The notes beneath the pieces are model-generated. The model saw only the letters and a list, made by a program, of their open reading frames with translations, did no database searches and was not told the origin of the DNA. The position numbers and the translations under genes are program-made. This document shows positions 3,656-63,959 of a stretch of 64,000 bases of DNA, in pieces (the first letter of the stretch is position 1; every line of letters starts with the position of its first letter). Source of the stretch: a virus (lineage: Duplodnaviria; Heunggongvirae; Uroviricota; Caudoviricetes); the IMG/VR virus record IMGVR_UViG_3300020576_001396, positions 1 to 64,000 of that record. One strand, 5' to 3'.

Positions 3656-3671
3656 AAAGTTGCATTATTTT

Positions 3672-6534: not shown

Positions 6535-6573
6535 CTAACTAACAATAATTACTAACAAACAACTATCGCTATT

Positions 6574-19874: not shown

Positions 19875-19947
19875 GCCGTCTTAGCTCAGTGGCCAGAGCT
19901 GTTGCTTTGTAAGCAACGGGTCGGGGGTTCGAATCCCTCAGACGGCT
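19875..19947 (+). tRNA. tRNA-Thr (anticodon TGT)
   Basis: Acceptor GCCGTCT/AGACGGC perfect. D-arm GCTC-AGTGGCCAGA-GAGC. Anticodon stem GTTGC/GCAAC with loop TTTGTAA. T-arm GGGGG-TTCGAAT-CCCTC. Discriminator T. Confidence 0.85.
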
Positions 19948-20016
19948 CTAATAATAAATCAAAGTAAAATAAAACCAATTGAACCAATAGATTTACTCAA
20001 AGAGAATCTAGCTGAA

Positions 20017-42828: not shown

Positions 42829-42838
42829 ATATGATGAA

Positions 42839-45800: not shown

Positions 45801-47506
45801 GCTTCATCAAGCATTGGTATAAGTAAATCAAGTATGTTAACTACTTTACCACCTGTAAGTTTCTTGAATTCCTTTTCACCTATAATAGCTTGTAACAAAG
45901 CTTTGTTCTCATAGAACATCTGTGTCAACGCTTTCTGGTCAGAAGCCTCACCAAACGCATCTACCTGTCCTCTAACATCGTCGTATAAGCGTCTAAGGTC
46001 TTCTAGCATATCCCATGAAGCAACTGATGTACGCCACTCTGATAGTAGCTTAGCAGTCATAGGTTCAGCATTAGGTATCTTACCTTGACTAAGTTCCTTG
46101 TTCTTAGGATATCTAACGTTCTTCTGATATTCAATATACTTATCATTCATCTGTTTAGTTGATTCAACAGCAAAACGAATCATATGTATCAAACTCTTTG
46201 TAGGATTAAGTCCTTGCAAACGAGGCATAGTCTCTTCCAAAGCTTTATACTCCGGTGTTTCTTTACCTTTCTTAGAATAGACTTCCAGTTTCTTACTTAA
46301 AGCTTTAACAGCCTTAGTCTGTAACTTTTCTTCCTCTACAATAAGTTTATCAATAAGTGTAAGAGAGTCGCCAAGTTTCTTACTATACTGGTCATATCTA
46401 GACACAGCACCTTGTATATACATACCAGCTTGCTTGTCCTCAACTGAAGCACGTTCTTTAGTCTTTACTTCCTCACCATATACTAGTCTTTGTGCAAGAT
46501 CAAGTACTACAGAACTCTCTATGCCTAACATGGCCCTAAGCCTACGCATGAAGCGTACAAGCCATCTAAGCCATTTATTCTGCTGTTCCTGGTCTTTAAA
46601 CAACTCTGCTACCTTTAAACCAACAGCTGTAGTAAGTATCTCTTTGTCTATTCTATCGTCATTACGCTGTACTAATTCAGGATAAGCAGCCATTACAGAC
46701 TTCTCTATGTCAGAACCTTTAAGCTGTTCTCTACCTAGTTTAATCATGGGGTTAGACATACCCCCTAGTATATCTATAAGTACGTGACCATACTCATGGC
46801 CTATTGAATCCGTAGTCATAAGTGTAGGGTTAATACGTATAGTCCTACCCCCCGCCTCAACTACCGCAATAGACATTATAGTCTCGTCATACATTACTGT
46901 GGTAATATAAGGTATAGCCTTCTGTAATACAGCTATCTTAGACTTAAGTCCTTCTTTAGTTTCTGGCTCTGTTTGTATACCTTGAAGTTTACGACTTTCT
47001 TCTGGCAACCCATTGGCTTCAGCATTACGTGCAGCGTCTTCTGCTGCGAGATCAGCACGCTGTTGATTGCGTACTATATGTAAGTTATGAAGTTCGTTTA
47101 AATCGCCTACAAAGCGTCTATCATAGGCTTTAACAGGGAACTTACCTTTTACAGGAGTACCACGTTCAAAGTACATCTCACCTTTCTCAAGAGCGTAACG
47201 TGTATTAAGTTCACGTACCATGTCATCAGCCTTCTTCCTAAAGAAATACTTAGTATCAGGTCTGGGTAACCCATCAACTGTAGACCACTTCTTAGTGTCC
47301 ACTAAACCTTCAGCTTTATTGACATCCCACACACGTTGGTTATGACCAGCGTCAAGACTACCTTCTTTTGCTAGGACGTTGAGTTCCCCTTCTGAGGGAA
47401 CCCTACCACCAAGCTGATCAAATATGATAAGAGCAATGTCTTTACCGTATTTAGTAACAGAATCCTGCCACTCTTTCAAATTTATATTAGGACATATACC
47501 TTTCAT
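42839..47506 (-). CDS. 1555-aa virion or ejected-cargo protein candidate with a zinc-metallopeptidase-like HExxH motif
   Basis: Uninterrupted 4.7-kb ORF in the late operon. IGHEYGHVLID encoded at 46785..46799. Confidence 0.75.
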   Translation of the reverse strand: MKGICPNINLKEWQDSVTKYGKDIALIIFDQLGGRVPSEGELNVLAKEGSLDAGHNQRVWDVNKAEGLVDTKKWSTVDGLPRPDTKYFFRKKADDMVRELNTRYALEKGEMYFERGTPVKGKFPVKAYDRRFVGDLNELHNLHIVRNQQRADLAAEDAARNAEANGLPEESRKLQGIQTEPETKEGLKSKIAVLQKAIPYITTVMYDETIMSIAVVEAGGRTIRINPTLMTTDSIGHEYGHVLIDILGGMSNPMIKLGREQLKGSDIEKSVMAAYPELVQRNDDRIDKEILTTAVGLKVAELFKDQEQQNKWLRWLVRFMRRLRAMLGIESSVVLDLAQRLVYGEEVKTKERASVEDKQAGMYIQGAVSRYDQYSKKLGDSLTLIDKLIVEEEKLQTKAVKALSKKLEVYSKKGKETPEYKALEETMPRLQGLNPTKSLIHMIRFAVESTKQMNDKYIEYQKNVRYPKNKELSQGKIPNAEPMTAKLLSEWRTSVASWDMLEDLRRLYDDVRGQVDAFGEASDQKALTQMFYENKALLQAIIGEKEFKKLTGGKVVNILDLLIPMLDEAIAVKNKIQQLYIDKGKELIVDYLFPYVNHVKVLKREEYERKWLDMTPEEQKGLTKAQYIMQQLNENLHQIEKETRDLILRELGKAEGDVGFLTRYIDTILDSRDVISSALARAVFDIQEKSNLQILEYKYQFVDRVTALEKQLGRTIGVPDEKFWDWMIETDPDTGRPLQNIISSLPSKLINDFWDLYNQVMSDTYKNNNGIKPSDDQKRRIIYEWKEKNAPRDKEAWLNARIELANKLQEEGIITDKEKARYISNAKVTTREVRVPIAKIFKTQNARDIVDSFERRNEWTFRNPSGYYKKINAKWYALEAIRKSNPNDERVKFYDFITETIDQAAARLPGKYSLTTELPSMMKTMGQRYKASGALGMSKADFLKYEFNAKFKKQNTDTDKGGLLNTPDEELNAVGKEKKEAAKAEGVVEGTEKSELVNEANEPVYFLPIYYTQNKTHDVGQKLPIYDQSFDIASLYFNYIKMAVDFGNKYEVLAELEMTNYFINDRDVIRRDAKGNIITDATAKKIRRIGESIRDKALVDSGRKSMLAAQVADFLKANIYGMEHDEEPDVNIFGFTMDRAKALDALNSFTALNMLGMNFVAGIANVNLGEITQINEAFAGQYTTIKDLKNATGYYYKNLGGIMNDIGMRRPTNIVSLLNERFTTLNEEIDGKININSRFANLMNTNTLFFTSHAGEHYMQTRFMLAMLKTLKAYDKDGNDLGSMLDHISVDEETNRLKIDEKVANFTEADQTAFSARMHRVLTAMHGEYSKIGQSALQRQALGRMAILFRRFIVPGFKRRWEKKGINNLLDDSTEGYYITFGRLAKQFMVDYMHFKFEAMEAMGRKGKYKMTDMERANMVRLAGEMTAFAITVIMAAILMRAKADDDDKDNLFLNNAAYQAMRLRAELLFFLNPMATMQILRSPMATMSLLENTLKLMGQVMYPLYSGTLEFQEYQQGSWKGHLKLAKTFNNILPVYKQWDRVTNIGDQLSWFQQ

Positions 47507-47509
47507 ATT

Positions 47510-50500
47510 CTAGATATTACAGTGTTTATAATTATCATTTGTTTCATCTATCTTCTGCTGTGTAAGACCGTCTACTTTTGTACCTACGGTTTCACCTGTT
47601 GTCTGACTATAGTCTTCAAGCAGTTCACCAGGTTCTAATAAATCAGACGTATCAAATATATCGTCTTCGCCTATAGGAACTGCTACTTGTGAGTTTAACA
47701 TACTCATAGGTTGGAATGAACGAAAGTCATATACTACTCTATCTGTACCCTTCTCTGTTCCTATTGAATCAGGATCAAAATCACCAGGTAAATCCTTAGT
47801 ATCATTACCTTCAATAACGCTTCTCTCCTGACCAAACTCAACTACCTTCTTACCAGCCTCCCAGTATCCTTTCTTCTTGGATATAACATATACAGGTTCT
47901 ACTACACCGTCTTTGGTTATGTAACCCATATACTTATAAAGTATAGGTTTCTGACCGCTTTCACCAACAAGTTTTACAAATGGTTTAAATACTCTTTCAC
48001 CAAAAGTGTTGTATCCTATGTGCAGGTTTTCTATAGTTGTCTTAAAACGTATGCTTATTTGCATAGGATACTTCTCTCCCCAACGTTCACCGTTTGGTTT
48101 ACGACTTTCCCCAACATCCGTGTGACTTACTCTAGGCACCATATCATCGTCATCCCAAGCATTCTGGAATATGTCGTCATGTACTGATTCAAGTAAAGCG
48201 TAGTTGTTAACGTCGTTAAACTGTACACGCATGTTCTTCATATACTTAGAAAATCCAATCTCTTTAAGATATACGGGGGGTACATAGTTGTATATAGAGT
48301 ATATTGACCTACTAAAACCTGAAGTAAAGAACGAGTATGTAACTAAATCTTTAGCAAAATCAGAAACGTCTTTATTATCCGATGCTATTAACTCAGCCCA
48401 CCCATCAATTATACGGTCTTTAGCCCATTTTGTTTTAACATCTGTGGCTGTAAAAGTTATAATTATATCTGGAATACCAGGTCTAAACGACATAGAAGGT
48501 TGTAATAATTTGATAAAAGGATTATCAGAATACAACTTATTGTTTTTAATCTTATTAAGTCTAGCTACCATAGTGTTATCACCATACAACATACTGCTAA
48601 GTGTATCAGGCTTTACACCCATGTTGTTTACCATAAATCTACCTACTATACCTGAGAATATATCGTCGTTTATAGAGTTAAGTATGTACAGTCCTTCTTG
48701 AGTTACATTATCGGCTTCACCTATCTCTTCCATGATACGATCGCTAAGAGCTGTTACACAATCACTAGCCATAACTGTGGTATCCTTGAATATAGACTGA
48801 CCAAGCTGTACACTGTTCTTATAGTAGTTACCTATGAATGTCATGTCAAACAGTTTATCCATGTTCTTAATGACATTATCTTTCAGTACCTTGTTTACAA
48901 GCTTTGTAAATCTACGTAGTTCAGATATGTTATTACCAAAACGTTTTGTATCAACTGTAGTGGCTTCTACTGCTTGAAACAAGTATTTACCTATATCATT
49001 TAGTTCAGCAAACTTTTCAAGTATTTGAAGTTGTCTTGCATAGAAGGCAGCGTCTTGGTTTGTATTTTCATTAATGTCTTTCTTCAGACGATCGTTATCG
49101 AATATTTCGTCATCGGATTTAACTTTCTTTTTAAGCTTTTCAGCTACAGTAGCGTTCCACAGTAACTTCTTATATTTACTAGTAATGTAATTAAGAGGTT
49201 TCTGATCAATAGCTCTAAGTTTTCCTTTGTAGTTATTCTTAGCTAATGCGTATTCTTTTAATATAGGCTGAGCAAGGAATAAGAACGCCTGTTCACCTGC
49301 ACCTGCACGCACCAGTAATTCCCCCACGCTGTAGGTAGCGTCGTTTACGTTCAAGCTGAAGATATAAGCATCTTTAGCTATATCCACGTGGGCGTTAATC
49401 AATGCTGAAAGCCAGTCAAGTATAGACTCCCTGTCTTTACCTACCTTACCTGACAAATCTGTTACCATACCATCTTCAGTCTCCATAGTATTACCTACAC
49501 CTATATAGGTTCCAAGATGTATACCAGCTATCTGACCTAAGATATGATGTACGTTAGCTCTAGCAAAAGGACCAATACCCTTCTTACCCCAAAGATACTT
49601 GTGTTTTACTTCACCTTGATATATATATGAAGCTGTATGTAGTGAAGGATAATTTCTAGAATGGCCTTCCAATTCTGATACTTTAGATGCTAAGTCTTTC
49701 AGTAATCCTGTAGCTGCATCAAGAGGCATGTAGTTATCTATGATATGATCGTTAGCTGTGAGTACTGAGAAGTATGAGTCTATTAATCTATTCTCAATAG
49801 CAGCCTTGGTATTCTGTTTCATTATAGACCAATCAAGGAAGTCTATAGCGTTATCGCTTATCCAGTTTAATCTCTCTTCCTCTATAGCCTCGTCAAGCTT
49901 TTTGCTCATCTTAGCTATCTCATCACTAAGGTTTCCAACCATACTAGCAATAGCCTTAGACTGCATGTTAACCATCTTGATGTATTCTGGAGACTTTGTA
50001 TCAATGTCTGACTCGTCAACCATCATACTTTCAGTATCATCTCTAAGCTTAGATAATATAGCTTTAAGTTCCTTACGCTTACCATACATTTGTTGTAGTG
50101 GAGCATACCAAGCCTTCTTCATCTGACGTGCTTTGTCAGCAATAGCTTCGTGAGAGTATGCCTCTATCCTCTTATCAACAGAGGAGTTCTCTTCTGTCAT
50201 AAACTGTACTCTAACCGGCTTACCACCTACTATTTTGTAGTTGTGCCTTATGAAGTACAACTTGTCAATGTCGAAGTCGGAACCGGTAAGTGTGGTAAAC
50301 TCTGAAGGAAGAACTACAGTAGCAGTAGAAGTCTCTGGTAAAAACCCTACAATCTTTAAAGGTACTGTAGATACAAGACCCTGTGTAGGAACCCTGTAAC
50401 CGATACCAACAAACATTGCGTTAGCATACTCAAGTCTTTCTGCATATGTCTTCTTAGCGTAGTCTGGTATAGCATTCCTGAATACTTCTATGGAAACCTT

Positions 50501-53500
50501 AGCTTCCATGTAACCATCCTTATCTATCAGTTGTAGACTATCGTCTTTCTCTGCTTTACGTAGACCGAAGTTAGCCATTTGTATCAAAGCAGTACCAGGC
50601 ATCTTCAAATCTACTGACCCTTTAGCAAGTGAGGATATCTGTGCAGACTGTACCCACTTTCTATCAGGTAAAGCATCTGTTTCAAATCTTTCACCATCAG
50701 CTTGTTTAGCAAGTGCGTCAACTAATGAATCAGGCATACCAGACATACGTGCTCTGGTACGTATAAAGTCATACAGCTTCTCTGGGTCTCTAGACATCAT
50801 AGTCTCCTTGTCAACCCCAATGATGTTTAAGAACTCATCTGTACCTCTGTCAGATAGTTCGTTCATCATTTCTTTATTCTGTTCTTTAAGCTCTTTACCA
50901 GTTAGTGTTTCATTACCAACTTTATATTTTCTATTATCGTCAATGTTCGATAAAGATACTTTTCTGAACTGTGTTTTTACTACATCCCTCAACTCATTAT
51001 GAGGCTCTGTAATAGTCTGTCTACGTAAGTACTGGAATGAAGCATTGCCTGTAGGCATGTCTTCAACATCAGAGATATTAACCAAGTCTGTGTTTGGTAC
51101 CCCATCCTCATCTGTAACATAGTACTGTATCTTAGGACCTACCCCCACCTTAACAGCCGAATCAAATAATACCATATCTATAGGGTCGCTTTCGCTAGTC
51201 ATCCTATCATACAGGTGTTGAAGCTGTGTGTCTTTTACAAGACGTGGTGTAAGTGTAGCTAAGGACATCTTATAGTACAGTGGAGAAGCTGAGTTAGGAC
51301 CCATTTCAGGGCCAAAGTAACCAAACTTCAACGGCTGCATAAACAAGTCGTCTACAATCTGCTGTTCTTTTAACGTAAGGTCTCTGTCGAGTTTAGATAA
51401 CTCGAAAGCCTCCTGCTTATCTTCAGTCCATTCACCAAGACGTATGCTTAAAGCCCTAAACATATCAGGTGTTATATAAGCCTGACCGTCAGTAGGGTCT
51501 ACTGAAGTATAGTTACTAAGAGCCTTCTCTGCACGTTTCTCTGCAGCTTCTGCTGTGTAACCATTCTTCATGTATATATTAATAAACTTCGGTAATAGGT
51601 ATTCCCTTACACTTAATGCGTCGTACTTCTGTGTAGCAAGTATAGCTGTGGTAAAATTATCGTTGTTGTGAAGCAGTCTATCGTTAGGTAGTATGCTATT
51701 AGGTATGTTAAGTCTAGATACTAATCCTGTAGAGGCAATAGCTGTATAACGTTTAATTTTATCATCAAGATTCTTATAGTAAGCAGGTGACATGAATACC
51801 ATCTTCTCTGCCTCTATAGTAGCCATTATACTATTTAACTGGAAGTTGGCAATCTTATTACGTAATGTAATATCCTGGTTACCCCCAAATTCTTTAGACT
51901 CACGTTTGATAGCGTCTATATCAAACATTTTATTTACAACAGAAGCAATCTTACCTTTCTGTTCAGATACGAGAACTATACCCTGCTTATGCATGTCACG
52001 CATCGCATCATTTATACGATCCTCAAGTACCTTCCTAACGTAACCTTTATATATACCAAGTTGTTTTACATCTTTAGTACCCAGGTCATATCCTTTACCA
52101 TTAAAGCCAGTAAAATGCTGGTACTTCAGACCGTTAGCATTCTTATAACCTTCTTCTGTTCTACCTTTAGAAGCGTCGAAATGGTAGTTCTCTTTGAGTA
52201 GATGCTCAGTACCTTTCTTCTTAGCATCAGCAATCTCCTTTTTAACCTTCTGTATCTGGTTGTACTCATCAACCGCATAGTAGAAGAATGTATCAACTAC
52301 ACTCTGTGGTAAGGTTAATTCACCAGTCTTATCATTGTACAGATAGTTAAACTTAAGTGGCTTAAGACCTGCCATTGTATATAGGTGACCCCTATCAGCA
52401 AGCTGTGGAAGTACAACAAGACCGGACTCAAACAGACCTATCTTAACCATTGTATCTTCAAGGTCACTAATATCTTTGTAAGACCTACCACGATCTCTAG
52501 CGTTAGTAACTGATAAGTATGAGAACATAACTACCTCTAGTTTCTTTCTAACGTCTGGGTCAGCAAGTTGTTTAAGATAGTAGGAATGTTCGTTATAACC
52601 TACTTTAGCTAATCTATTGTAGTTTACACCGTAATCTGGGTTATTACGTATAGCATGAAATAAGTCTGTGATGTAACTATTCTCTGACAGTAGATAGTAT
52701 GGATTACCGTCTGGTCCGAGTATAGTGTTGGTCTTCATACCTCCGTGTATCTCAACGTACGCAGGAGCTATCAAGTCTCTGAACAAGCTTTCATTCTTAA
52801 AGATGTGGTCAAGTAACATCTCACCACCTTTATTGTTTGTAACCTTACCCTGTTCTCTAAGTCTAGCAAACGAACCTGAGTTACCAAATACTGGGGCTGT
52901 CTTCTTTACAACAAGGAAAGTATACAGAGCTTTATTCCTATCAGACGAGTCTACTTTATCCAATATGTTATTAAGAGTATCCTTATCAATAGGAATAGAT
53001 ATCTTATTAAACAACGCTATTGTAGAATTGAATAGAGAATCGTAGTTAGGTATAGTACCATTATTCTTCTTATTAGTGTACTCTACTTTTACCTGATTAG
53101 AAAGTTTTGTATAATCGTGTATAACACTAGTTAAGAATGTCTTATTAGGCATACCGTTAGTAAAAGCTTCTGATAGCAGGAATGCCTGCCCCCATACAGC
53201 TGCTTGTGAAGCACCCATCTTCTGTGTCTCAGCATCAGCAATCTCAATACCAGCTTTACCAGCTTTCTTGTTTGCAAGAGCATTACGATACTTATATCTG
53301 TTCTTACGCATAGCGTGGAAGAACTGTGTTGTAAGAGTATCGAACGGGTCTGTCTCTCTGTCTGCTTTAAGTTTCGCAAGCAGGTCTTTATAAGGTATAG
53401 TAGTCTTTGTTTCTAGTGAGGCTATCATATCTTCTACGGAACCCATCTCACTTAAGTCTGTAAGAAGAGTATCAAACATAGAGTCATAGTCTACAAATTT

Positions 53501-56500
53501 ATTTAGTAAGGTTTCACTGTTAAGTTCCTCTGTTGCTCTTAATGTAGCTATTACAAGTTTAATAGCAGCCCCAGCATTGTCTCTACCATTTAATTCAAAG
53601 GCTGCCTTCTCATATCTACGGAAGTTATCCCCGTTCATATTGGTCTCATCCTCTGGATTCTCAGGTAGTATTGTACGTATACCTAATGCTTCCAACTGAC
53701 TCTTCATCAAGTCTAAGTAGATACTATAGTTGTCAACAATCTCCTGATAGAATGCTGCAAGATCATCATAGTGTCTAGCTGTAACTTTCTTAAGAGAAGC
53801 TCTAGCCTCGTCTGCCTTCTTAGTAGACCAAGCTACACGTTTCTGCATAGCCTCTCTAGCAACCATATAGTCAAGACTTCCAATGTCTTTGGTCTTAATA
53901 ACACCACTATGATTTATCATGGTGAATACTAAGTGGTTTACTATGTCAGTAAGCTGCGTTGTATTCTTAACTCTTTCTAGTTGTACGCCTTTAACTATAT
54001 GTGTATAAACATCACCACGTTTAAGTTGTTCGTACGAACTCTTTCTTGCCGTAGACCATCTTAATCTACCAGTCATACCTGAGCTCTTACCCATAACTCT
54101 AAACAAGTTGTTAACGTCCAGATTGGATATTCTTAGTTTACCTGTGAACACTGTAGCTATAAAGTCTATAAGGTCAGTAAAGAACTGTTTGATTTTACCA
54201 AACACTCCTTTAGCTCCTTCGATCTTCTCACCACGAGTTTCCATCTCACGGTAGTCTTCAGCAAGTCTTTCATTAACCTGTCTATCTGTAGCATCTTTCA
54301 TTTTGTACTTAACTCTAGCTTCAGCGTATATAGCCTGCTGCTGCTCTGGTGTTAAGTACAGTAAAGATACCCTATGGAAAGCTTCTTCATATTCAGTTCC
54401 TTTAGCTAGTTTCTTAGACAGTGTGATAGCGTCTTTCTCGAAAGTACCAAATGCCATTACGTTACCTGTTTCAGTTACTACACGTATAAGGTCTTCTTCG
54501 GTCTTGATGGTAAAACCAGGACCTAGTTTCTTACGTAGATTCTTTATAGCTTTGTCTAAGTCACCAGCTTCGTAAGGTTTACCTTCAACAACTGCGTGTG
54601 CAAAAGGGTCTACACCATCAATCTCATTTAATTCTTGTGTGTCAAGTTCTTCTAGCTTACCTAGTAATTCTTCTTTAGTTTCAGTAGTTTCCTTAGGTAG
54701 CTCAGCATATACTGGCCAGTTGAACTTATCTTTAAGTATAGTAGCAAGTCCTTTAACGTCTATCTCAGCACCGTCAAACTCCTCAAGTTTCTCACGATTC
54801 TTCTTCTTATTTGTAACAACTTTGAATACTACTTTACCAGCTCCATTGACAACAGTCTTAGCAAGTACTTCTACTTCTGTCCATTTGCTATCGTCTACTT
54901 CTCCAATAGGCTGATCGTTATCGTCAACAGCTTGTGTACCTCTAAGTCCTATAAATATCTCTGAACCTGCGGGTAGTGTAGCAAGTGTTTTTGCTTTAAG
55001 TTGTATAATCTCACCGGTATCAGTATTGGCTACAGCTTTAGCTTTTTTCTTCTCTGGTTCAGTAATCTCGTTCTTCTCAGGCTTCTTCTCAGTTTTCTTT
55101 TTCTTCTTCTCCTCTGGAGCTACAGTCTTAGTAGCACCGTAAGGATCAAACCAGAACATAGGTTTAGAGAATATAGTACCTGTAGCAGGGTCTTTAATAA
55201 GGTCTGTAAGTACCATACCATTCCTGAATAAGAAGGACTGATACGATTCACCTTTGCTACCTGTTATAGAACCTATTTTAAATGTCTGTGCGAGCTTTCC
55301 ACCAAGACCAGACTTATGATATTTATTCTCACGTTTCAATGGAACTATATAGTTCTTATTCATTGTTATGTGATCTATAAATTCATTCTCCTGTTCCTTA
55401 GTAAGTTTCTTACGTAAGTTTAATTCTTTATCCCCGAAGTATAGTATACCACCGTCTGAGTATAAAGTCTTAGAAACTAAGTGACCATGATACTGTACGT
55501 TAGTATCTTTGTTACTCTGATTAGTTATCTGTCCATCAAGAACTAGATAGTCTATAACCTCGCCTACTGTAAGACCTCCTTCAACTTCGTCTCCTTCGTA
55601 CAATGTATTCGGACCACCTTTAGAATTTACAAGTTGTTGATAAGCTTTAAGTAATATTCTAGCAGATTCCTCACTAACTTTAGCTACGTTAAGTTTGACG
55701 TTACGTGTATCACCATTAGCTGTTTCTTCTGTAGCCCATATGACGTTACCTGAAGAGGCTCTACCAGCTACTGGGTTAGGACCTTTACCATCCCATAATG
55801 TGTTTCTACCATCAGATATTGCCATAGTACCGTTATCAGCACTGTTAGTTACCTCAAGTATGTTTCTATTGGTACCTTTAGTCTGACTGATTAAACCAGC
55901 ACCCTTCTGTAGATTAGAAAGTACAACCTTCTTACCGTCCATCAAGTCCTTCATAATAGCCTTACGCTGTTCGCGTGTAGCTTTACGCTCCTCATCAATC
56001 ATTTTCTTCCTAGAGGCTTCGTACTTAACAGGGTCTACTTCAAATAATTCATATTGCTCCTCAGTTACAACTACTGTATCTTCATCCGCAAACGAACTTG
56101 TATGTAGGTACATGCCACCAAATGGCATCTTGTTACCGTTACTGTCTATAAGCGTTAGCTTGATAGGTACACGGTCTATAAGAGCTGTATAGTCCTCTTC
56201 ATTGAAACGATCTCTATAAGTCTTAGCTAAGGCTTCCCTAGTTATTACAGTACCCTTCTTCCAGTCGTCACCTTCATAGTTCTCGTCAACAGTAGCTACT
56301 AGTGTAAACCCTTTAAGATTGTTTGTAGGATTACTAAGATACTTGTCAAGGTCTGTATTGTCTTCAGCCTTATAAGCTACACCTGTAGCTGGATGAGCAC
56401 TACTGTGACTACGTTCTCTTTTTGTTCTTTCTACAGCACTGTCTAGTTCATCTTCTAGGTTCTCAGTTTCTATACCGAGTTCGTCTTTCTTATTAGTATT

Positions 56501-59500
56501 GTCGTTAGATAACTCTGGCTCCTTAGAAAGCTGTTCAGCCTTTTCGTCTACTATAGCTTCCTCGTCCTTGTTAGTCTTCTTACGACCTTTCTTCTTCTCA
56601 GGCTCAGGGTCTACCTCTTCGACATTTCTGGCATTGCCAGTTTTCTGTGTAGCTGTGTCTGTACTGGGTTGTCCATCTTGCCGTAGTGGAGTCCCTCCTG
56701 GGGTTTTAGCCACTGTTTGCTGTCCAGCTTTTTCATTCGATTCTGTTTTAACAACAGGTATCTCTGAAGTGCCGGGAGCTGTAATAATTTCTTCTTCAGT
56801 GGCGGGTCTAGTATTTCTAATAAACTCTTTAATTTCATCTTTAATTTTGTTTTTAATTGCAGTTCTTTCGTCGTTGGTTGTACGTTGTCCAGCTTCAATA
56901 TAAGACGCTGCAACCTTGTCAATAATAGAACCTAGATCATTAAGGTACAATCTAAGTATCTTGTTGTATTTAGGATTAGGCTTACCATTCTTTAATTTTG
57001 ATGGAAGCTGTCTAAAATTAATAGTTACAGACTTACCGTTATTCCAACGTTTCTTAGCTGGAAATACAAAGGTTGTCTGTGAAGCAGAGGTGTATACTAA
57101 AGGATTTTTATTTGTTTTAGTATTACTTACACTTTCATCTACAGTGTTATATAATATTTTATAACTACCATCAGGCATGTGATATACATTATACTCAATA
57201 CCGTTGCTAGGATCAGTAACAACAGCAAAATCCGACTGTAATGCTTTCTCACGTTCTTCAAGGAATGCTTCGTACGCTACCTCTCTAGCCTCGTGGAGTA
57301 ACTCTATAGTGTACGCTAACTCAGCAGCTAATACCTGACTTGTGAATGTCATAGATACACCGTTTACATCTTTAAGCGTAACATGTATCTCACCGTCTAC
57401 TTCTTCTATAGCTGAGAATAGGTCATCGTTATCAAGTACGTATCTTCTACCTTGTACTATTATACCTGTACCATCAGTATCAAGACGTATATCAAATATA
57501 GTATGTTTAAGAGGTATGATACCTAAGTCAGAAGCTTTAAGCTCGCTGAACAGTTCAGTATCTGTTGTCTTACCTATAATGTATTCTTTACCAGAATCCG
57601 TAGCTTTAAATACTACTTCATTGGTTTCTTGGTCTATGAATAAAGTACCATGCTGATTACCGTATACTACGTTAAGCTCGTCTTCCTTCAAAGGAGATTT
57701 GAATATCTCTTCCAAAGTCATAGCAGCAAGTGTACGATCTCCATATCTAGCAGCAAGTTCTTCACCTGTAGCTAACTTGAATACTTCTTCTTTAGTTTCA
57801 ACACCTGTAACTTCAGTAACATTACGGTTAGTGAGTTCATGTACTATGGACTCCTTACGAGCTTTGTTACGCTCCTCTTCGTCTACCTGAGCTTGTATCT
57901 CAGCTTCTCTAGCTTTAATCTCTTCATGTACTGTAGATGCAGGCTGTGTTACTGTACCACGCTCTTCCATCTCCTTATCTAAAGTAGCGAGATGCTCATT
58001 GATAGGAGTAGCAACAGTACCTGTAAGAACTATGTTCTTTGCAGTAGCTTCTTCAGGAGTATAAGTCTCTTCCTTACCTGTCTTTTTGTTTACAAGTATG
58101 AGCTTACCCTCCTTATCTTTACCTTGAAATGTGTACTCGTTACCATCTTTATCTCTAACAGTAACAAAGTCGTTGTCTGTACTTGTTTCAGTAGGTTTAG
58201 TTTCTGTATTAGAATCAGCTACTTCGAGTATTTTTTTCTTTTGATCGTTATATTCTTTCTGCCAATTCTTTTCGTTAAGTACTTCTTTTACTTGTTTCTC
58301 AGAAGCCTTAATCATTCCGTTAACAGCGTCTAAAGATTTCTGCAAACGTTCTACCTGATCCTTACCTAAGGCAGTTTCACCCACAGATGTAGCTTTAGTT
58401 TTAGCTATATCTAACTCTATTTCCCTAGCCTTGTCTACCCAAAACATCTGGTCTACACTAGCCATAAACTGTTTTAAAACAGCTTGGTCTTTTATAGTAT
58501 TAGCAAGATTATATAGGGCGGTGTCTTTAGCTTTATCACCTGTCTTACTTTCCTGAAAGTTATACAAACCAGCAAAGGCCTGTTGTACATTCTGAAATAA
58601 GGTTTTGTATTGCTGACCCTTAGCAATATACTGATTAGCTAACTTGTTTACTTCTTTCTCATCTATAGGCTCACCCTTAGCTTTGGAAGACTCAATCTTT
58701 TGTCTAGCATAGTTCTTCATTTCAGTAGAGAAGGCTTCTAGACCGTCTTCACTGTTCATGTAAGCATATGCTAATGAGGATACTCTTTCTTCTTCAAGCC
58801 TATCTGCCATTACTTGATTGTTTGAATTGGCAACAGCTAACATTTCTTTAGCATTAGCTTGAGTGTAGTAAGTAGCTACAAATACAGTAGCTAACTTGAA
58901 AGGGTCTACAACAGCTTCTTTTGTTTTCTCGTCAATAACTACTTGACCTTTATCATCTTTAAGATAGATGTCTTTCTTTGCAAGGTCTTTACTTACAGAG
59001 GCAATAGTATGACCTAACATAGTATGTAGGTACACATCATTCTGTCTATCTTCCTTAGCTTCTCTAACACCTGATACACCACCAGGTATCATACCTATAA
59101 TCATACCAAGGGCTATTGATTTCTGCCCCTCGTCTGTTGTCCAGTTCTTAGCCCAGTTACTAAAGATACCATCAATTTGTGAACGATCCTCTTTACCTTC
59201 AGCCTTCTTCTGCCAGTAATCCTGAACAGCTAATTGTATGTTTTCTTCCCAGGCACCTTCAGAAACCATAGACTCTGTCATGCCTTTACCAAAAGACACA
59301 GCACGTTGTGCATTGGTTATAGGTGCTACTTCAGATATAAGTCTACCATCAGGTCCAGTTATATTTTTTATACGACCAGACATTGTGTTAGCCTTACCAA
59401 AGAACATTGAGTTAGTAATGTAGTTAGGTACCATTAGTATACCCATGTTCCATAAGAATGTACCACGTGCAGCTTTAGCAGCTTCTTCTTTAGATACCCC

Positions 59501-60277
59501 CTGTTTAAGTAACTGATTGTATGTGTCCTTAGCTTCAAATCCAGCTTCTATACCAGAGTTAAGTGCAGACATTGTTACTAGGTCAGCCTTCTTAACCCAA
59601 TTAGCAAATTTAGGTAAAGCCTCAGCAGCTATCTTACCTTCACGTACTGCTTTAGTAGTATTAGCAAAGGTCTTAGCTAGTTTAGTAAAGGCTCCTGTAG
59701 CTTCTCCCAACATGCTTATACCAGCAGATTCTAAGTAAGCTGATACTAGAAAAGCAACACCGTCTATAGCGTCATCCATCCAGAAACCAAGAGTACCCAT
59801 CTGTTGAAAGATGTTACCTTGATTATATCTGTTTGTGTGGTATATAGGCATTGCATCCTTTACAGACTGCTCTGCATTCTCCCAGAAGTTAACCCAACCA
59901 TTATCAAACGATTCAGCTAATGACTTATCTGTTAGTAGAGCTTCCCCCATACCGTATAAAAACCCACCGCCTTCTAGTAATTTAGTTGCAGCTGTACCAA
60001 CAAGACGACCAGCTCCATATACAATTTCTTGTCCTATAGGCTGGTCTTGTGCTCTAAGTTCAGGATTATCAGCTCCTACTTTTAAGTGGAAGTTATATTT
60101 AGTAGGGTCAAGATTAGTAGGTTCACCACCAGGCATGGTTTGTGAATCATTAAATCTTAACTGTCCGATATTTTCTGTAGGAAGAGCTGGTGTTTTTTGT
60201 TTACCCTCCAACCCTGTTGAAGGTGATATTTTATTCTGTGAACTTATTAGGTCCCCACCAGGTAAAATGTTTGCCAT
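47510..60277 (-). CDS. Giant 4255-aa protein. A crAss-type virion RNA polymerase (DFDID double-psi beta-barrel metal-binding motif) is fused to about 3000 aa of N-terminal sequence.
   Basis: Single 12.8-kb ORF with no stops. GSDFDIDKLYF encoded at 50264..50278 (residue about 3334). The N-terminal part is K/E-rich and coiled-coil. Confidence 0.8.
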   Translation of the reverse strand: MANILPGGDLISSQNKISPSTGLEGKQKTPALPTENIGQLRFNDSQTMPGGEPTNLDPTKYNFHLKVGADNPELRAQDQPIGQEIVYGAGRLVGTAATKLLEGGGFLYGMGEALLTDKSLAESFDNGWVNFWENAEQSVKDAMPIYHTNRYNQGNIFQQMGTLGFWMDDAIDGVAFLVSAYLESAGISMLGEATGAFTKLAKTFANTTKAVREGKIAAEALPKFANWVKKADLVTMSALNSGIEAGFEAKDTYNQLLKQGVSKEEAAKAARGTFLWNMGILMVPNYITNSMFFGKANTMSGRIKNITGPDGRLISEVAPITNAQRAVSFGKGMTESMVSEGAWEENIQLAVQDYWQKKAEGKEDRSQIDGIFSNWAKNWTTDEGQKSIALGMIIGMIPGGVSGVREAKEDRQNDVYLHTMLGHTIASVSKDLAKKDIYLKDDKGQVVIDEKTKEAVVDPFKLATVFVATYYTQANAKEMLAVANSNNQVMADRLEEERVSSLAYAYMNSEDGLEAFSTEMKNYARQKIESSKAKGEPIDEKEVNKLANQYIAKGQQYKTLFQNVQQAFAGLYNFQESKTGDKAKDTALYNLANTIKDQAVLKQFMASVDQMFWVDKAREIELDIAKTKATSVGETALGKDQVERLQKSLDAVNGMIKASEKQVKEVLNEKNWQKEYNDQKKKILEVADSNTETKPTETSTDNDFVTVRDKDGNEYTFQGKDKEGKLILVNKKTGKEETYTPEEATAKNIVLTGTVATPINEHLATLDKEMEERGTVTQPASTVHEEIKAREAEIQAQVDEEERNKARKESIVHELTNRNVTEVTGVETKEEVFKLATGEELAARYGDRTLAAMTLEEIFKSPLKEDELNVVYGNQHGTLFIDQETNEVVFKATDSGKEYIIGKTTDTELFSELKASDLGIIPLKHTIFDIRLDTDGTGIIVQGRRYVLDNDDLFSAIEEVDGEIHVTLKDVNGVSMTFTSQVLAAELAYTIELLHEAREVAYEAFLEEREKALQSDFAVVTDPSNGIEYNVYHMPDGSYKILYNTVDESVSNTKTNKNPLVYTSASQTTFVFPAKKRWNNGKSVTINFRQLPSKLKNGKPNPKYNKILRLYLNDLGSIIDKVAASYIEAGQRTTNDERTAIKNKIKDEIKEFIRNTRPATEEEIITAPGTSEIPVVKTESNEKAGQQTVAKTPGGTPLRQDGQPSTDTATQKTGNARNVEEVDPEPEKKKGRKKTNKDEEAIVDEKAEQLSKEPELSNDNTNKKDELGIETENLEDELDSAVERTKRERSHSSAHPATGVAYKAEDNTDLDKYLSNPTNNLKGFTLVATVDENYEGDDWKKGTVITREALAKTYRDRFNEEDYTALIDRVPIKLTLIDSNGNKMPFGGMYLHTSSFADEDTVVVTEEQYELFEVDPVKYEASRKKMIDEERKATREQRKAIMKDLMDGKKVVLSNLQKGAGLISQTKGTNRNILEVTNSADNGTMAISDGRNTLWDGKGPNPVAGRASSGNVIWATEETANGDTRNVKLNVAKVSEESARILLKAYQQLVNSKGGPNTLYEGDEVEGGLTVGEVIDYLVLDGQITNQSNKDTNVQYHGHLVSKTLYSDGGILYFGDKELNLRKKLTKEQENEFIDHITMNKNYIVPLKRENKYHKSGLGGKLAQTFKIGSITGSKGESYQSFLFRNGMVLTDLIKDPATGTIFSKPMFWFDPYGATKTVAPEEKKKKKTEKKPEKNEITEPEKKKAKAVANTDTGEIIQLKAKTLATLPAGSEIFIGLRGTQAVDDNDQPIGEVDDSKWTEVEVLAKTVVNGAGKVVFKVVTNKKKNREKLEEFDGAEIDVKGLATILKDKFNWPVYAELPKETTETKEELLGKLEELDTQELNEIDGVDPFAHAVVEGKPYEAGDLDKAIKNLRKKLGPGFTIKTEEDLIRVVTETGNVMAFGTFEKDAITLSKKLAKGTEYEEAFHRVSLLYLTPEQQQAIYAEARVKYKMKDATDRQVNERLAEDYREMETRGEKIEGAKGVFGKIKQFFTDLIDFIATVFTGKLRISNLDVNNLFRVMGKSSGMTGRLRWSTARKSSYEQLKRGDVYTHIVKGVQLERVKNTTQLTDIVNHLVFTMINHSGVIKTKDIGSLDYMVAREAMQKRVAWSTKKADEARASLKKVTARHYDDLAAFYQEIVDNYSIYLDLMKSQLEALGIRTILPENPEDETNMNGDNFRRYEKAAFELNGRDNAGAAIKLVIATLRATEELNSETLLNKFVDYDSMFDTLLTDLSEMGSVEDMIASLETKTTIPYKDLLAKLKADRETDPFDTLTTQFFHAMRKNRYKYRNALANKKAGKAGIEIADAETQKMGASQAAVWGQAFLLSEAFTNGMPNKTFLTSVIHDYTKLSNQVKVEYTNKKNNGTIPNYDSLFNSTIALFNKISIPIDKDTLNNILDKVDSSDRNKALYTFLVVKKTAPVFGNSGSFARLREQGKVTNNKGGEMLLDHIFKNESLFRDLIAPAYVEIHGGMKTNTILGPDGNPYYLLSENSYITDLFHAIRNNPDYGVNYNRLAKVGYNEHSYYLKQLADPDVRKKLEVVMFSYLSVTNARDRGRSYKDISDLEDTMVKIGLFESGLVVLPQLADRGHLYTMAGLKPLKFNYLYNDKTGELTLPQSVVDTFFYYAVDEYNQIQKVKKEIADAKKKGTEHLLKENYHFDASKGRTEEGYKNANGLKYQHFTGFNGKGYDLGTKDVKQLGIYKGYVRKVLEDRINDAMRDMHKQGIVLVSEQKGKIASVVNKMFDIDAIKRESKEFGGNQDITLRNKIANFQLNSIMATIEAEKMVFMSPAYYKNLDDKIKRYTAIASTGLVSRLNIPNSILPNDRLLHNNDNFTTAILATQKYDALSVREYLLPKFINIYMKNGYTAEAAEKRAEKALSNYTSVDPTDGQAYITPDMFRALSIRLGEWTEDKQEAFELSKLDRDLTLKEQQIVDDLFMQPLKFGYFGPEMGPNSASPLYYKMSLATLTPRLVKDTQLQHLYDRMTSESDPIDMVLFDSAVKVGVGPKIQYYVTDEDGVPNTDLVNISDVEDMPTGNASFQYLRRQTITEPHNELRDVVKTQFRKVSLSNIDDNRKYKVGNETLTGKELKEQNKEMMNELSDRGTDEFLNIIGVDKETMMSRDPEKLYDFIRTRARMSGMPDSLVDALAKQADGERFETDALPDRKWVQSAQISSLAKGSVDLKMPGTALIQMANFGLRKAEKDDSLQLIDKDGYMEAKVSIEVFRNAIPDYAKKTYAERLEYANAMFVGIGYRVPTQGLVSTVPLKIVGFLPETSTATVVLPSEFTTLTGSDFDIDKLYFIRHNYKIVGGKPVRVQFMTEENSSVDKRIEAYSHEAIADKARQMKKAWYAPLQQMYGKRKELKAILSKLRDDTESMMVDESDIDTKSPEYIKMVNMQSKAIASMVGNLSDEIAKMSKKLDEAIEEERLNWISDNAIDFLDWSIMKQNTKAAIENRLIDSYFSVLTANDHIIDNYMPLDAATGLLKDLASKVSELEGHSRNYPSLHTASYIYQGEVKHKYLWGKKGIGPFARANVHHILGQIAGIHLGTYIGVGNTMETEDGMVTDLSGKVGKDRESILDWLSALINAHVDIAKDAYIFSLNVNDATYSVGELLVRAGAGEQAFLFLAQPILKEYALAKNNYKGKLRAIDQKPLNYITSKYKKLLWNATVAEKLKKKVKSDDEIFDNDRLKKDINENTNQDAAFYARQLQILEKFAELNDIGKYLFQAVEATTVDTKRFGNNISELRRFTKLVNKVLKDNVIKNMDKLFDMTFIGNYYKNSVQLGQSIFKDTTVMASDCVTALSDRIMEEIGEADNVTQEGLYILNSINDDIFSGIVGRFMVNNMGVKPDTLSSMLYGDNTMVARLNKIKNNKLYSDNPFIKLLQPSMSFRPGIPDIIITFTATDVKTKWAKDRIIDGWAELIASDNKDVSDFAKDLVTYSFFTSGFSRSIYSIYNYVPPVYLKEIGFSKYMKNMRVQFNDVNNYALLESVHDDIFQNAWDDDDMVPRVSHTDVGESRKPNGERWGEKYPMQISIRFKTTIENLHIGYNTFGERVFKPFVKLVGESGQKPILYKYMGYITKDGVVEPVYVISKKKGYWEAGKKVVEFGQERSVIEGNDTKDLPGDFDPDSIGTEKGTDRVVYDFRSFQPMSMLNSQVAVPIGEDDIFDTSDLLEPGELLEDYSQTTGETVGTKVDGLTQQKIDETNDNYKHCNI

Positions 60278-62493: not shown

Positions 62494-63959
62494 TTATTTT
62501 TAGGAGCTAACTCAATTTGATTGCTTGTATTAAAGGTGTTATCGGGTTGTACCATGCCTCCTCTGTAAGGACGTATAGCACTAGGGTTAACTCCACCTGG
62601 AGAATTATATCCTACGTTAGATGTATCAGCTTTGTTAAAACCACCAGTTCCACCAGAGAACATTTTCATCCAACTCATGTATTGATTCATCATCATATCA
62701 TCACGGGACTTCTGGTTGTTCATCTGCTGCTGTATCTGTGAGTACTGACTCAACTGACCTGCTGCAGCTGCACCAAAGTTACGCTGTGCTGCTTGGTTTC
62801 TAGCATTAAGGTCTGACACCATTAGATTAGTATCAGCCATCTTCTGACCAAGTGCTCCCTGTGTCTGCCCGTATTCACCAAGGTACTGATTACGTTGCTG
62901 TTGTCCCTGTGCGTATATGTTAGACTTGTTAGTCATACTTGCGTTCTCTAAAGCTATCCTACCAGCCATGTATTGACCACGACCAGAAGCTGTAGAACGT
63001 ATGTTAGCGTCAGCCCCTGCTACTGCCGCATCACTGGCCTGCAGAGCAGGTGTCATGTTAGGCTGACGATTTCTCATCGTATCTAAGGCAGAGTAGGCTA
63101 AAGGATTCTGAAATGCAGCCGGGTTAAGATTCTCAGCAGGTTGCATAGACCTACCCATATTGTATAATGTAGGGGCTAACTGTGCAGCACCTTGAAGTAA
63201 GTCTTTACCGTTATTCTTCAAGAACGTTTTACCCGCTCCCATTATAGCTCCCCAGTCTGCTGCTCCACCACCCATAGGTGTACCACCTTCTTGCACACGT
63301 TTCTGTGCATCAGCTACTATCAACGGTTGGTATTCAGCTTTAAGTTGTTCTAGTCTCCTCGAGGCTGTCTTACGCTGTAATGGAGTAGCTGAGTTACTGT
63401 TAAGTACCTTATTCCATTTAGTTATCTCAGGCTTCTGCCTAGCAGCAATAGCCTTAGCTTGTGCTGTATTCTCAGGACTTACAATGACAGTACCATCTTC
63501 TAGAGTAACAGTAGTATCATCTACTGGTCTTCTAGCACCAACTTTCTCAGTAGGTAAAGCAGTACCATCAGGTCCTATCAACATTTCTTTATTACGTAGT
63601 TTAACAGGGCTACCCCCTTGTACTACACCGCCTTTAGCTGCCATCCATGGATTTGTAAAATTGTTTAAAGAGCCACCAGCATTTACTTGAGCTGCGCCCA
63701 TCTGTTGAGCGACTAAAGCTTGCTGTGCTTCTTGTTGTCTCTCTAATTTCTTTTCTTTGAAGTGGTCTACTAAACCTGTAGCTAGTCCTGCAACACCGCC
63801 TATAATAGCACCAGGAACGGATAGTACCCCTCCCCCACCTATAGCTCCAGTGCCAGCTCCTACAGCAGTACTTGTAAGTATACCACCTAAACTGTACTGA
63901 GGTATACCACCACTATAACGTACTGGCTGCCTTAATATCTTTTCTCTTCTCGTCTTCAT
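62475..63959 (-). CDS. Structural protein with a Gly-rich N-terminus and a Q/N/M-rich C-terminus, 494 aa
   Basis: GGIPQYSLGGILTSTAVGAGTGAIGGGGVLSVPG... low-complexity N-terminus. Confidence 0.65.
   Translation of the reverse strand: MKTRREKILRQPVRYSGGIPQYSLGGILTSTAVGAGTGAIGGGGVLSVPGAIIGGVAGLATGLVDHFKEKKLERQQEAQQALVAQQMGAAQVNAGGSLNNFTNPWMAAKGGVVQGGSPVKLRNKEMLIGPDGTALPTEKVGARRPVDDTTVTLEDGTVIVSPENTAQAKAIAARQKPEITKWNKVLNSNSATPLQRKTASRRLEQLKAEYQPLIVADAQKRVQEGGTPMGGGAADWGAIMGAGKTFLKNNGKDLLQGAAQLAPTLYNMGRSMQPAENLNPAAFQNPLAYSALDTMRNRQPNMTPALQASDAAVAGADANIRSTASGRGQYMAGRIALENASMTNKSNIYAQGQQQRNQYLGEYGQTQGALGQKMADTNLMVSDLNARNQAAQRNFGAAAAGQLSQYSQIQQQMNNQKSRDDMMMNQYMSWMKMFSGGTGGFNKADTSNVGYNSPGGVNPSAIRPYRGGMVQPDNTFNTSNQIELAPKNNWTWPR

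What the first reader, a model, noticed from the sequence alone, without database searches (positions are those of the whole stretch)
47510..60277. A single 4255-aa ORF fuses a crAss-type virion RNA polymerase module to about 3000 aa of extra sequence
The minus strand carries a 12,768-nt ORF with no stop codons. Near residue 3334 (nt 50264-50278) it encodes SDFDIDKLYF. This is a DxDxD variant of the DxDGD metal-binding loop of double-psi beta-barrel RNA polymerases, as recalled for crAss-like virion RNAPs of about 2200 aa. The motif sits about 920 aa from the C-terminus, which matches the position in a stand-alone crAss-like RNAP. The extra N-terminal roughly 2400-3000 aa would therefore correspond to what are normally separate cargo genes. 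Whether the gene is truly fused, or separated by an unseen frameshift or assembly join, changes how the ejected proteins are made.
Basis: partly seen in the sequence, partly recalled or inferred. Interest (0 to 1): 0.8.

Follow-up and report, generated by a model that had tools for sequence, protein, structure and literature searches.

The report
Fused ejection-protein and virion RNA polymerase gene
The 4255-codon gene is real: it joins a crAss-type virion RNA polymerase to the cargo protein that other crAss-like phages encode just upstream. This joined form is the usual, already described arrangement in a large branch of these phages, so it is an ordinary member of a known kind.

Summary
Window 47510-60277 (-) is one 4255-aa ORF, and DFDID sits at aa 3334-3338 (nt 50264-50278). 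The C-terminal ~2150 aa are an end-to-end orthologue of the solved phi14:2 virion RNA polymerase gp66 (PDB 6VR4, E=1e-57).

The extra sequence is about 2000-2100 aa, not 3000. It is the orthologue of the neighbouring cargo gene: phi14:2 gp67 (E=4e-36) and crAss001 gp47.

The fusion is not an artefact. An exhaustive protein search found 22 cluster representatives of 3187-4972 aa that span the junction in the same order. One 4302-aa protein aligns end to end at 55% identity, on an independent 96-kb contig.

The fusion is also not new. All eight Suoliviridae RefSeq genomes sampled carry a 4272-4946-aa gene of this kind, and the literature describes such polyproteins.

One added detail: a conserved zincin-like HExxH domain sits at the module junction. 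Here and in the nearest relative its first histidine is glutamate (EEAFH).

Whether the chain is cleaved cannot be decided from sequence. Verdict: a new, divergent member of a known kind, of low interest.

The parts
47510..60277 (-). Whole giant ORF, 4255 aa, ATG start, TAG stop
58670..60127 (-). N-terminal conserved domain (aa ~51-536), orthologous to the N-terminus of phi14:2 gp67. AF2 model of aa 45-430 is all-alpha, made of long helices.
59066..59122 (-). Only strongly hydrophobic stretch (aa 386-404, KSIALGMIIGMIPGGVSGV). Gly-rich; candidate membrane-inserting segment.
   Evidence: Kyte-Doolittle scan. Conserved as LGALIGLxPGG. Its resemblance to the HA2 fusion peptide is not significant, E 3-7.
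56378..56815 (-). Long low-hydrophobicity, charged linker (aa ~1155-1300) inside the poorly conserved region aa 400-1300
55118..56380 (-). Conserved middle domain (aa ~1300-1720), collinear with cr4_1 gp26 aa 1402-1597. Only non-significant similarity to gp67 around aa 1090-1230.
54998..55102 (-). Lys-rich linker (aa ~1726-1760)
54053..54580 (-). Zincin-like domain at the module junction (aa ~1900-2075). This is the best conserved block of the N-terminal half and is orthologous to the C-terminal domain of crAss001 gp47.
54374..54388 (-). EEAFH (aa 1964-1968) at the place where 24 of 26 relatives have HEAFH, HEAYH or HEGFH. The first zinc-ligand His is replaced by Glu (codon GAA).
54269..54271 (-). 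Invariant Glu 2003, 35 residues after the second His. Candidate third metal ligand (gluzincin pattern).
47528..54010 (-). Virion RNA polymerase module (aa ~2090-4250), end-to-end orthologue of phi14:2 gp66 and crAss001 gp50
   Evidence: phmmer vs 6VR4, E=1.2e-57. BLASTP. Profile mapping puts gp66 aa 102-721 on query ~2089-2665. gp50 match.
53573..53719 (-). Region aligned with the gp66 cleft-blocking domain (gp66 aa 196-233 = query aa 2187-2235)
   Evidence: MAFFT mapping. Domain limits from the paper. Local alignment is weak here.
51044..51640 (-). First (beta-like) barrel region, just before the connector (aa ~2880-3078), with invariant PLK..FG (aa 2982-2989), K3003 and K3043
50585..51043 (-). 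Connector between the two barrels (gp66 aa 1095-1238 = query aa 3079-3231)
50219..50401 (-). Second (beta-prime-like) barrel core with GYR.P.QG and TGSDFDIDK. DFDID is at nt 50264-50278.
49538..49630 (-). Bridge-helix equivalent (gp66 aa 1529-1559 = query aa 3550-3580)
49310..49426 (-). Trigger-loop equivalent (gp66 aa 1598-1636 = query aa 3618-3656)
42839..47506 (-). Downstream partner gene, 1555 aa. Orthologue of phi14:2 gp65, crAss001 gp49 and cr4_1 gp27. HEYGH at aa 237 (nt 46784-46798).
60298..62493 (-). Upstream gene, 731 aa. Its N-terminus is similar to cr4_1 gp25, the gene in the same position.
62475..63959 (-). Next upstream gene, 494 aa, similar to cr4_1 gp24

Best explanation
This is the standard giant gene of the transcription/cargo block of a crAss-like podophage (order Crassvirales) whose block has the layout seen in Suoliviridae. 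One reading frame encodes two modules. Module (i), aa 1 to about 2080, is the orthologue of the virion cargo protein that phi14:2 encodes as gp67 and crAss001 as gp47. It comprises an N-terminal helical domain with one hydrophobic Gly-rich segment, a fast-evolving middle with long charged linkers, a conserved middle domain, and a C-terminal zincin-like domain. Module (ii), aa about 2090-4250, is a complete orthologue of the two-barrel virion RNA polymerase gp66/gp50, with the catalytic DFDID, connector, bridge helix and trigger loop.

Shown here: the ORF, the homologies, the gene order, and conservation of the fused state.

Inferred from work on phi14:2 and crAss001: the protein is made late, packed into the capsid as cargo, and pushed partly unfolded through the tail ahead of the DNA. 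The polymerase part then transcribes the early genes, presumably the plus-strand block of the window. Fusion would guarantee equimolar synthesis and co-packaging of the two modules.

My best guess (about 0.55) is that the chain is separated near the junction during maturation or ejection. This would be done by the zincin-like domain at the junction or by the HExxH domain of the downstream 1555-aa protein. The alternative, that it stays whole, gets about 0.35.
For: The ORF and motif are as stated. The only PDB sequence match is 6VR4, at E=1.2e-57, covering gp66 from about aa 224 to 2091 with DFDID identical. gp66 structural elements map in order onto the query. The DxDxD motif is kept in all 20 aligned giants.

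The N-terminus matches gp67 at E=4e-36. The junction block matches the gp47 C-terminus at profile E=4.5e-33.

Gene order 494 / 731 / giant / 1555 aa equals cr4_1 gp24 / 25 / 26 / 27 and phi14:2 g069-g065.

The fused state is conserved. 22 of 29 representatives from an exhaustive search are 3187-4972 aa and span the junction. P0002 (4302 aa) aligns over query 1-4219 at 54.6% identity and lies on an independent 96,205-bp contig that also carries a crAss muzzle gene. Eight of eight sampled Suoliviridae genomes have a 4272-4946-aa gene here.

Composition and codon usage are uniform along the ORF.

The literature describes virion packaging and early-gene transcription by gp66, mentions fusion into a polyprotein 'likely cleaved', and reports cargo storage and ejection in crAss001.

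Against: There are no data on the protein itself. Packaging, ejection, activity and cleavage are all carried over from phages in which the two modules are separate genes.

Family placement is open. Identity to any reference phage is only 25-31%. The DNA polymerase's best hits are mostly crAss001-like (Kehishuvirus, Steigviridae) phages rather than Suoliviridae.
Confidence: 0.88

Rival explanations
1. The chain is never cleaved. The ~480-kDa protein is packaged and ejected whole, and the polymerase works while tethered to its ejection module. This would resemble the single ~3500-aa virion RNA polymerase of N4-like phages, whose flanking domains serve packaging and ejection.
For: The fused state has been kept across relatives that share under 30% identity. 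The junction block is a folded, highly conserved domain rather than a loose linker. In this lineage the junction HExxH has lost its first His. Giant single-chain virion polymerases are known in N4-like phages, and a tape-measure-fused one in P23-45 (abstracts).
Against: In phi14:2 and crAss001 the two modules work as separate proteins; in crAss001 they are even encoded on opposite strands. Covalent linkage is therefore not needed. Long charged linkers and two HExxH domains in the block offer means for processing. The authors of the gp66 study expected cleavage.
Confidence: 0.35
2. The long ORF is an artefact: two genes joined by an assembly chimera, or by a sequencing error that removed a stop or frameshift.
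For: None was found. The only grounds are that read coverage could not be inspected and that the exact protein is not on record elsewhere.
Against: The same fused order and similar length occur in 22 independent representatives. One is a 4302-aa protein that aligns end to end at 54.6% identity on another contig. Eight reference genomes show the same arrangement. Alignments run straight through the junction. Composition is uniform and there are no repeats at the junction.
Confidence: 0.02
3. The terminal TAG is read through or recoded. The giant would then continue into the in-frame 1555-aa gp65-like gene, giving a 5812-aa triple fusion of the kind reported for some crAss-like phages.
For: The stop is TAG, and the next gene's ATG is in the same frame, separated only by TAG-AAT. 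TAG-to-Gln recoding of late genes is known in this group: cr4_1's giant has 38 in-frame TAGs. The literature mentions fusion of all three proteins.
Against: There is no other in-frame TAG in about 7000 late-gene codons of the window. TAG ends several plus-strand genes. No suppressor tRNA is in the window. In the nearest relative the two genes are one base apart and not in frame. Being in frame has a one-in-three chance.
Confidence: 0.04
4. The polymerase module is also, or instead, translated separately from an internal start near the junction, so the fusion is only apparent at the protein level.
For: None directly. Internal starts cannot be excluded from sequence, and Bacteroidota-type translation and promoter signals are not covered by the available scans.
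Against: The junction region is continuous, conserved coding sequence in all relatives, with no conserved Met at a fixed position. There is no intergenic-like composition.
Confidence: 0.05

Closest known systems
Giant transcription-block genes of Suoliviridae (delta-group crAss-like phages), e.g. cr4_1 KNV51_gp26 (4491 aa), cr55_1 (4551 aa), cr118_1 KNV30_gp14 (4946 aa), cr114_1 (4272 aa)
   Same: One ORF of 4.3-4.9 thousand codons, with the polymerase module in the second half. It has the same flanking genes and the same junction HExxH block and DFDID.
   Different: Only 25-31% identity, and the N-terminal ~1400 aa are barely alignable to cr4_1. cr4_1 reads 38 TAG codons as sense, whereas the window uses the standard code. 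The references have HEAFH where the window has EEAFH. cr118_1 has about 1000 extra C-terminal residues.
Cellulophaga phage phi14:2 gp67 + gp66 (virion RNA polymerase, PDB 6VR4) + gp65
   Same: The N-terminal domain is similar to gp67, and the polymerase module matches gp66 end to end with identical DFDID. The downstream gene resembles gp65, with HExxH at a similar position. The gene order is the same.
   Different: phi14:2 has three separate genes (1797, 2180 and 1421 aa). Neither gp66 nor gp67 has an HExxH string. Whether they have a degenerate counterpart of the junction domain was not tested.
Bacteroides phage crAss001 gp47, gp50, gp49 (RNA-polymerase-associated cargo proteins)
   Same: The gp47 C-terminal HEAFH domain matches the junction domain. 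gp50 matches the polymerase module and gp49 matches the downstream gene. All three are virion cargo by mass spectrometry.
   Different: They are separate genes, and gp47 is on the opposite strand from gp49 and gp50. gp49 has no HExxH string.
Virion RNA polymerase of N4-like phages (~3500 aa) and the tape-measure-fused polymerase of Thermus phage P23-45 (5002 aa)
   Same: Each is a very large single chain that combines a packaged, ejected RNA polymerase with ejection or structural functions (abstracts). This is a functional analogy for 'polymerase fused to delivery module'.
   Different: The N4 enzyme is, from my own knowledge, a T7-like single-subunit polymerase rather than a two-barrel one. 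In P23-45 the polymerase is the N-terminal part of a tail tape measure. Neither gave a sequence match here: N4 vRNAP structures, if among the PDB chains searched, were not hit.
Zincin-like metallopeptidases (M34 Pro-Pro endopeptidases and anthrax lethal factor, M32, ArdC, CapP, IrrE, SprT/Wss1)
   Same: The predicted fold of aa 1879-2113 is a small sheet, then a helix carrying the motif, then helices carrying a conserved Glu. Relatives carry HExxH.

Membership tests
crAss-like virion RNA polymerase (gp66 family, two-barrel) | Catalytic DFD[I/V]D metal-binding motif | tested here: met
   DFDID at aa 3334-3338, aligned with gp66 aa 1361-1365. The motif is kept in all 20 aligned giants.
crAss-like virion RNA polymerase (gp66 family, two-barrel) | Homology over the whole enzyme, including the first barrel, connector, second barrel, bridge helix and trigger loop | tested here: met
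   phmmer E=1.2e-57 against 6VR4, in two long collinear stretches. BLASTP. Element-by-element mapping. This was tested by sequence, not by a 3-D model of this protein.
crAss-like virion RNA polymerase (gp66 family, two-barrel) | Position in the conserved cargo/transcription block next to a gp65-like gene | tested here: met
crAss-like virion RNA polymerase (gp66 family, two-barrel) | Packaged in virions, ejected, transcribes early genes; Mg-dependent RNA synthesis | not testable with these tools
   Known for phi14:2 gp66 and, for packaging, crAss001.
gp67/gp47-like virion cargo protein | Conserved N-terminal domain | tested here: met
   aa 75-536 vs gp67 aa 70-535, E=4e-36. gp67 vs the gp47 N-terminus gives E=3e-9.
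gp67/gp47-like virion cargo protein | C-terminal HEAFH domain as in crAss001 gp47 | tested here: met
   gp47 aa 2076-2220 matches the junction profile at E=4.5e-33. The domain is present, but the motif reads EEAFH.
Fused giant of Suoliviridae type | Both modules in one ORF of about 4-5 thousand codons, flanked by the same genes | tested here: met
Family Suoliviridae (taxonomic membership) | Clusters with the family on conserved genes (terminase, portal, capsid) | tested here: inconclusive
   Those genes are outside the window. The transcription block is nearest to Suoliviridae at 25-31% identity. The DNA polymerase's best hits are mostly crAss001-like Steigviridae, at ~28-29%.
Zincin-like metallopeptidase | HExxH motif on the active-site helix | tested here: not met
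   The query has E1964-E-A-F-H1968. 24 of 26 homologues have HExxH.
Zincin-like metallopeptidase | Third ligand downstream, and the zincin fold | tested here: met
   [not shown]
Zincin-like metallopeptidase | Proteolytic activity | not testable with these tools
   -
TAG-recoded late genes of crAss-like phages | In-frame TAG codons inside conserved late genes | tested here: not met
   There are none in the four late ORFs of the window. The sole TAG is the stop of the giant. cr4_1 has 38.

The most novel reading that the evidence does not exclude
In this lineage (the window's phage and the 4302-aa relative on contig SRR32538017_25028) the junction zincin-like domain has lost its first metal-binding histidine (HEAFH to EEAFH, two nucleotide changes, shared by both). 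If that domain is what separates the polymerase from the cargo module in other phages, these two phages would deliver an uncleaved ~480-kDa ejection-protein/polymerase chain. That would make them a natural test of whether cleavage is needed to activate a crAss-type virion polymerase.
Probability: 0.12. Interest if true: 0.5.

Novelty: new member of a known kind. Interest (0 to 1): 0.2.

Why it matters
Mainly it settles the flag. Very long ORFs in crAss-like contigs are expected and should not be treated as assembly errors or as new fusions.

Three points have modest value. First, the sequence is a deep-branching representative: at most 31% identity to any reference phage and 55% to the nearest metagenomic protein. 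That makes it useful for alignments of the fast-evolving polymerase. Second, the analysis places the module boundary at about aa 2000-2110, directly after a conserved zincin-like domain. That gives a concrete place to look for processing. Third, the His-to-Glu change at that site offers a simple mutational and proteomic test of the long-standing untested statement that these polyproteins are 'likely cleaved'.

Tried and rejected
**Searches that returned nothing useful**
- Word-indexed protein search with the full protein: timed out.
- Same search with the junction region: nothing, probably because low-complexity Lys/Glu stretches filled the candidate list.
- Same search with the polymerase core: one 693-aa fragment only.
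- Exact-sequence look-up: not on record.
- IMG/VR pattern scan: no relative.
- Megablast of 22 kb of the window against phage genomes: no match.
- Pfam on the whole protein and on neighbours: nothing.
- PHROGs: one weak, irrelevant hit.
- Profiles of the junction and N-terminal domains against PDB sequences and Pfam: nothing significant.

**Resources not available**
- p-crAssphage accessions are not in the collection, so I could not verify a three-way fusion in a record myself.
- The 2018 paper that first described the polyproteins is not held.
- The AlphaFold-database fold library was not available.

**Ideas considered and rejected**
- TAG recoding of late genes: no internal TAG.
- Chimeric join: conserved architecture and uniform composition.
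- The second D.D.D string at aa 4166 as a second catalytic site: it is in the unconserved tail.
Full report
**1. The observation.** The window carries an ORF at 47510-60277 on the minus strand: 4255 codons, ATG start, one terminal stop. The other two frames of that strand hold 313 and 656 stops over the same stretch, so the open frame is not chance. The gene is packed tightly between neighbours. The upstream 731-aa gene ends 20 nt before the ATG, and the downstream 1555-aa gene starts 3 nt after the stop. There are no Ns and no meaningful repeats. GC, GC3 and codon usage are even along the ORF and match the neighbouring genes.

**2. The polymerase half.** A sequence search of all PDB chains returns one entry, 6VR4, the virion RNA polymerase gp66 of Cellulophaga phage phi14:2. 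The E-value is 1.2e-57, in two long collinear stretches, with TGSDFDIDK identical. BLASTP against native gp66 agrees.

In a four-sequence alignment the elements named in the gp66 structure paper map in order (limits, mapping):

| gp66 element | gp66 aa | query aa |
|---|---|---|
| cleft-blocking domain | 196-233 | 2187-2235 |
| connector | 1095-1238 | 3079-3231 |
| DFDID | 1361-1365 | 3334-3338 |
| bridge helix | 1529-1559 | 3550-3580 |
| trigger loop | 1598-1636 | 3618-3656 |

The stretch before the connector, where gp66 has its first barrel, keeps invariant PLK..FG and two further lysines. All 20 aligned giant homologues keep the three aspartates; one has DYDVD. I did not model this half in 3-D. 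The evidence is sequence homology to a solved structure.

**3. The extra half.** tblastn of the first 2000 aa finds phi14:2 g067, the gene immediately upstream of g066. BLASTP gives aa 75-536 against gp67 aa 70-535 at E=4e-36.

In crAss001 the orthologues are gp47 (gp67-like), gp50 (polymerase) and gp49 (gp65-like). All three were detected in virions as RNA-polymerase-associated cargo.

A profile of the region around the junction matches the gp47 C-terminus (aa 2076-2220, E=4.5e-33, then on to aa 2306 of 2341). It matches gp66 from aa 102 onward at query position ~2089. The boundary between the two modules therefore lies at about aa 2000-2110.

The extension is thus about 2000-2100 aa, comparable with gp67 (1797 aa) and gp47 (2341 aa). 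It is not 2400-3000 aa, and it is one cargo gene rather than several. The neighbours also agree. The 494- and 731-aa genes resemble cr4_1 gp24 and gp25. The 1555-aa gene resembles cr4_1 gp27, phi14:2 gp65 and crAss001 gp49.

**4. Is the fusion real?** An exhaustive HMMER search of 1.84 billion representatives with aa 701-1900 gave 29 hits. Of these, 22 are proteins of 3187-4972 aa that align on both sides of the junction in the same order. P0002 (4302 aa) aligns over query 1-4219 at 54.6% identity. P0003 (4317 aa) aligns at 39-50%. P0002 sits on a 96,205-bp contig from another data set, with a crAss muzzle gene upstream and a 1653-aa gp65-like gene downstream. Independent assemblies with the same architecture, plus uniform composition, leave essentially no room for a chimera or a lost stop.

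**5. Is it new?** No. Every Suoliviridae RefSeq genome I looked at has one gene of this kind:

| Phage | Giant gene (aa) |
|---|---|
| cr4_1 | 4491 |
| cr55_1 | 4551 |
| cr118_1 | 4946 |
| cr50_1 | 4774 |
| cr114_1 | 4272 |
| cr10_1 | 4460 |
| cr60_1 | 4494 |
| cr109_1 | 4328 |

Steigviridae keep the modules apart. [quoted passage not shown] A review calls RNAP genes of up to ~6000 aa a hallmark of the group. The 2021 comparative study describes the block as several large multidomain proteins.

What is particular here is only divergence. There is no nucleotide-level relative in the phage collection and no close relative in IMG/VR. Identity to reference phages is at most 31%. The signal for family placement is mixed.

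**6. Anatomy of the extension.** A 21-sequence alignment of giants shows three conserved blocks in the N-terminal half: aa ~51-400, aa ~1300-1700 and aa ~1900-2050. They are separated by poorly conserved, partly charged or low-hydrophobicity stretches at aa 1155-1300 and 1726-1760.

I conclude that a zincin-like domain ends the cargo module and directly precedes the polymerase. A zincin-like protease domain in this block is mentioned in the literature for gp65 orthologues. I could not check whether its presence at the junction has been described.

**7. A lineage-specific change.** In the window and in P0002 the motif reads EEAFH. The first His is Glu, codon GAA in both, two changes from a His codon. 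The catalytic Glu, the second His and the distal Glu are kept. The change is inherited, not a sequencing error. Its effect is unknown: Glu can bind zinc, but this is not the canonical site.

**8. How it most likely works.**
- *Shown:* one translated chain is encoded, and both modules are orthologous to virion cargo proteins.
- *Inferred from phi14:2 and crAss001:* late expression, storage in the capsid, ejection in a partly unfolded state, refolding, and transcription of early genes by the polymerase module. Fusion would ensure equimolar synthesis and co-packaging.
- *Open:* whether the chain is cut. In favour of cutting: the modules work separately elsewhere, there are linkers, and there are two HExxH domains in the block. 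Against: the junction is a folded conserved domain, gp47 carries that domain without anything to cleave off, and the site is altered here. I put cleavage at about 0.55 and an intact chain at about 0.35.

**9. Side observation on the stop codon.** The giant ends in TAG and the 1555-aa gene follows in the same frame after one codon. Readthrough would give a 5812-aa triple fusion. I consider this unlikely, for four reasons. There is no other in-frame TAG in the late genes. TAG is used as a stop elsewhere in the window. There is no suppressor tRNA in the window. The nearest relative is not in frame.

**10. Verdict.** This is a divergent new member of a known kind of gene.

Noticed in passing
window 47504-47512 (-): The giant ORF stops at TAG, and the next gene's ATG is in the same frame, separated only by TAG-AAT. 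Readthrough would yield a 5812-aa three-module protein. The nearest relative (L012, 20907-20913) is not in frame.
   Followed up: partly
window 54374-54388 (-); L012 gene 8001-20909, aa 1872-1877: The HExxH of the junction domain reads EEAFH in the window and in its closest relative only. The codon is GAA in both.
   Followed up: partly
L003 8524-21999 (cr4_1 KNV51_gp26): The reference giant contains 38 in-frame TAG codons (recoded late gene). The window's giant and cr118_1's (L005 2691-17531) have none.
   Followed up: yes
[not shown]
   Followed up: partly
window 27108-29096 (+) versus 42839-60277 (-): The family A DNA polymerase's best hits are mostly crAss001-like (Steigviridae) phages, at ~28-29% identity; the top-ranked record, cr111_1, was not checked for family. 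The transcription block is nearest to Suoliviridae. This suggests a deep branch or a mosaic genome.
   Followed up: no
window 6463-6535, 10856-10931, 19875-19948 (+): Three tRNA genes (Glu-TTC, Leu-CAA, Thr-TGT) lie in the plus-strand early/replication region. None is a suppressor.
   Followed up: no
window 42391-42987 (-) and 42839-47506 (-): A 198-aa ORF overlaps the 3' end of the 1555-aa gene by 149 nt, right at the strand-switch point near 42.3 kb. It may not be a real gene.
   Followed up: no
window 495-2768 (-), 29680-30645 (+), 38141-39433 (+), 39858-40949 (+): Other recognisable genes in the window: ribonucleotide reductase large subunit, DnaB-like helicase, a peptidase (phrog_4191), and an exonuclease VIII-like PD-(D/E)XK nuclease.
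   Followed up: no
P0015 aa 1476-1480; P0009 around the catalytic site: One relative has an extra DFDGD string in the acidic linker before its junction domain, probably by chance. Another has DYDVD instead of DFDID at the catalytic site.
   Followed up: no
L001 22361-24142 (phi14:2 g070): The phi14:2 tail protein gp70 has two HExxH strings (aa 234 and 461). It gave a weak structural hit (E 0.066) to the junction-domain model.
   Followed up: no
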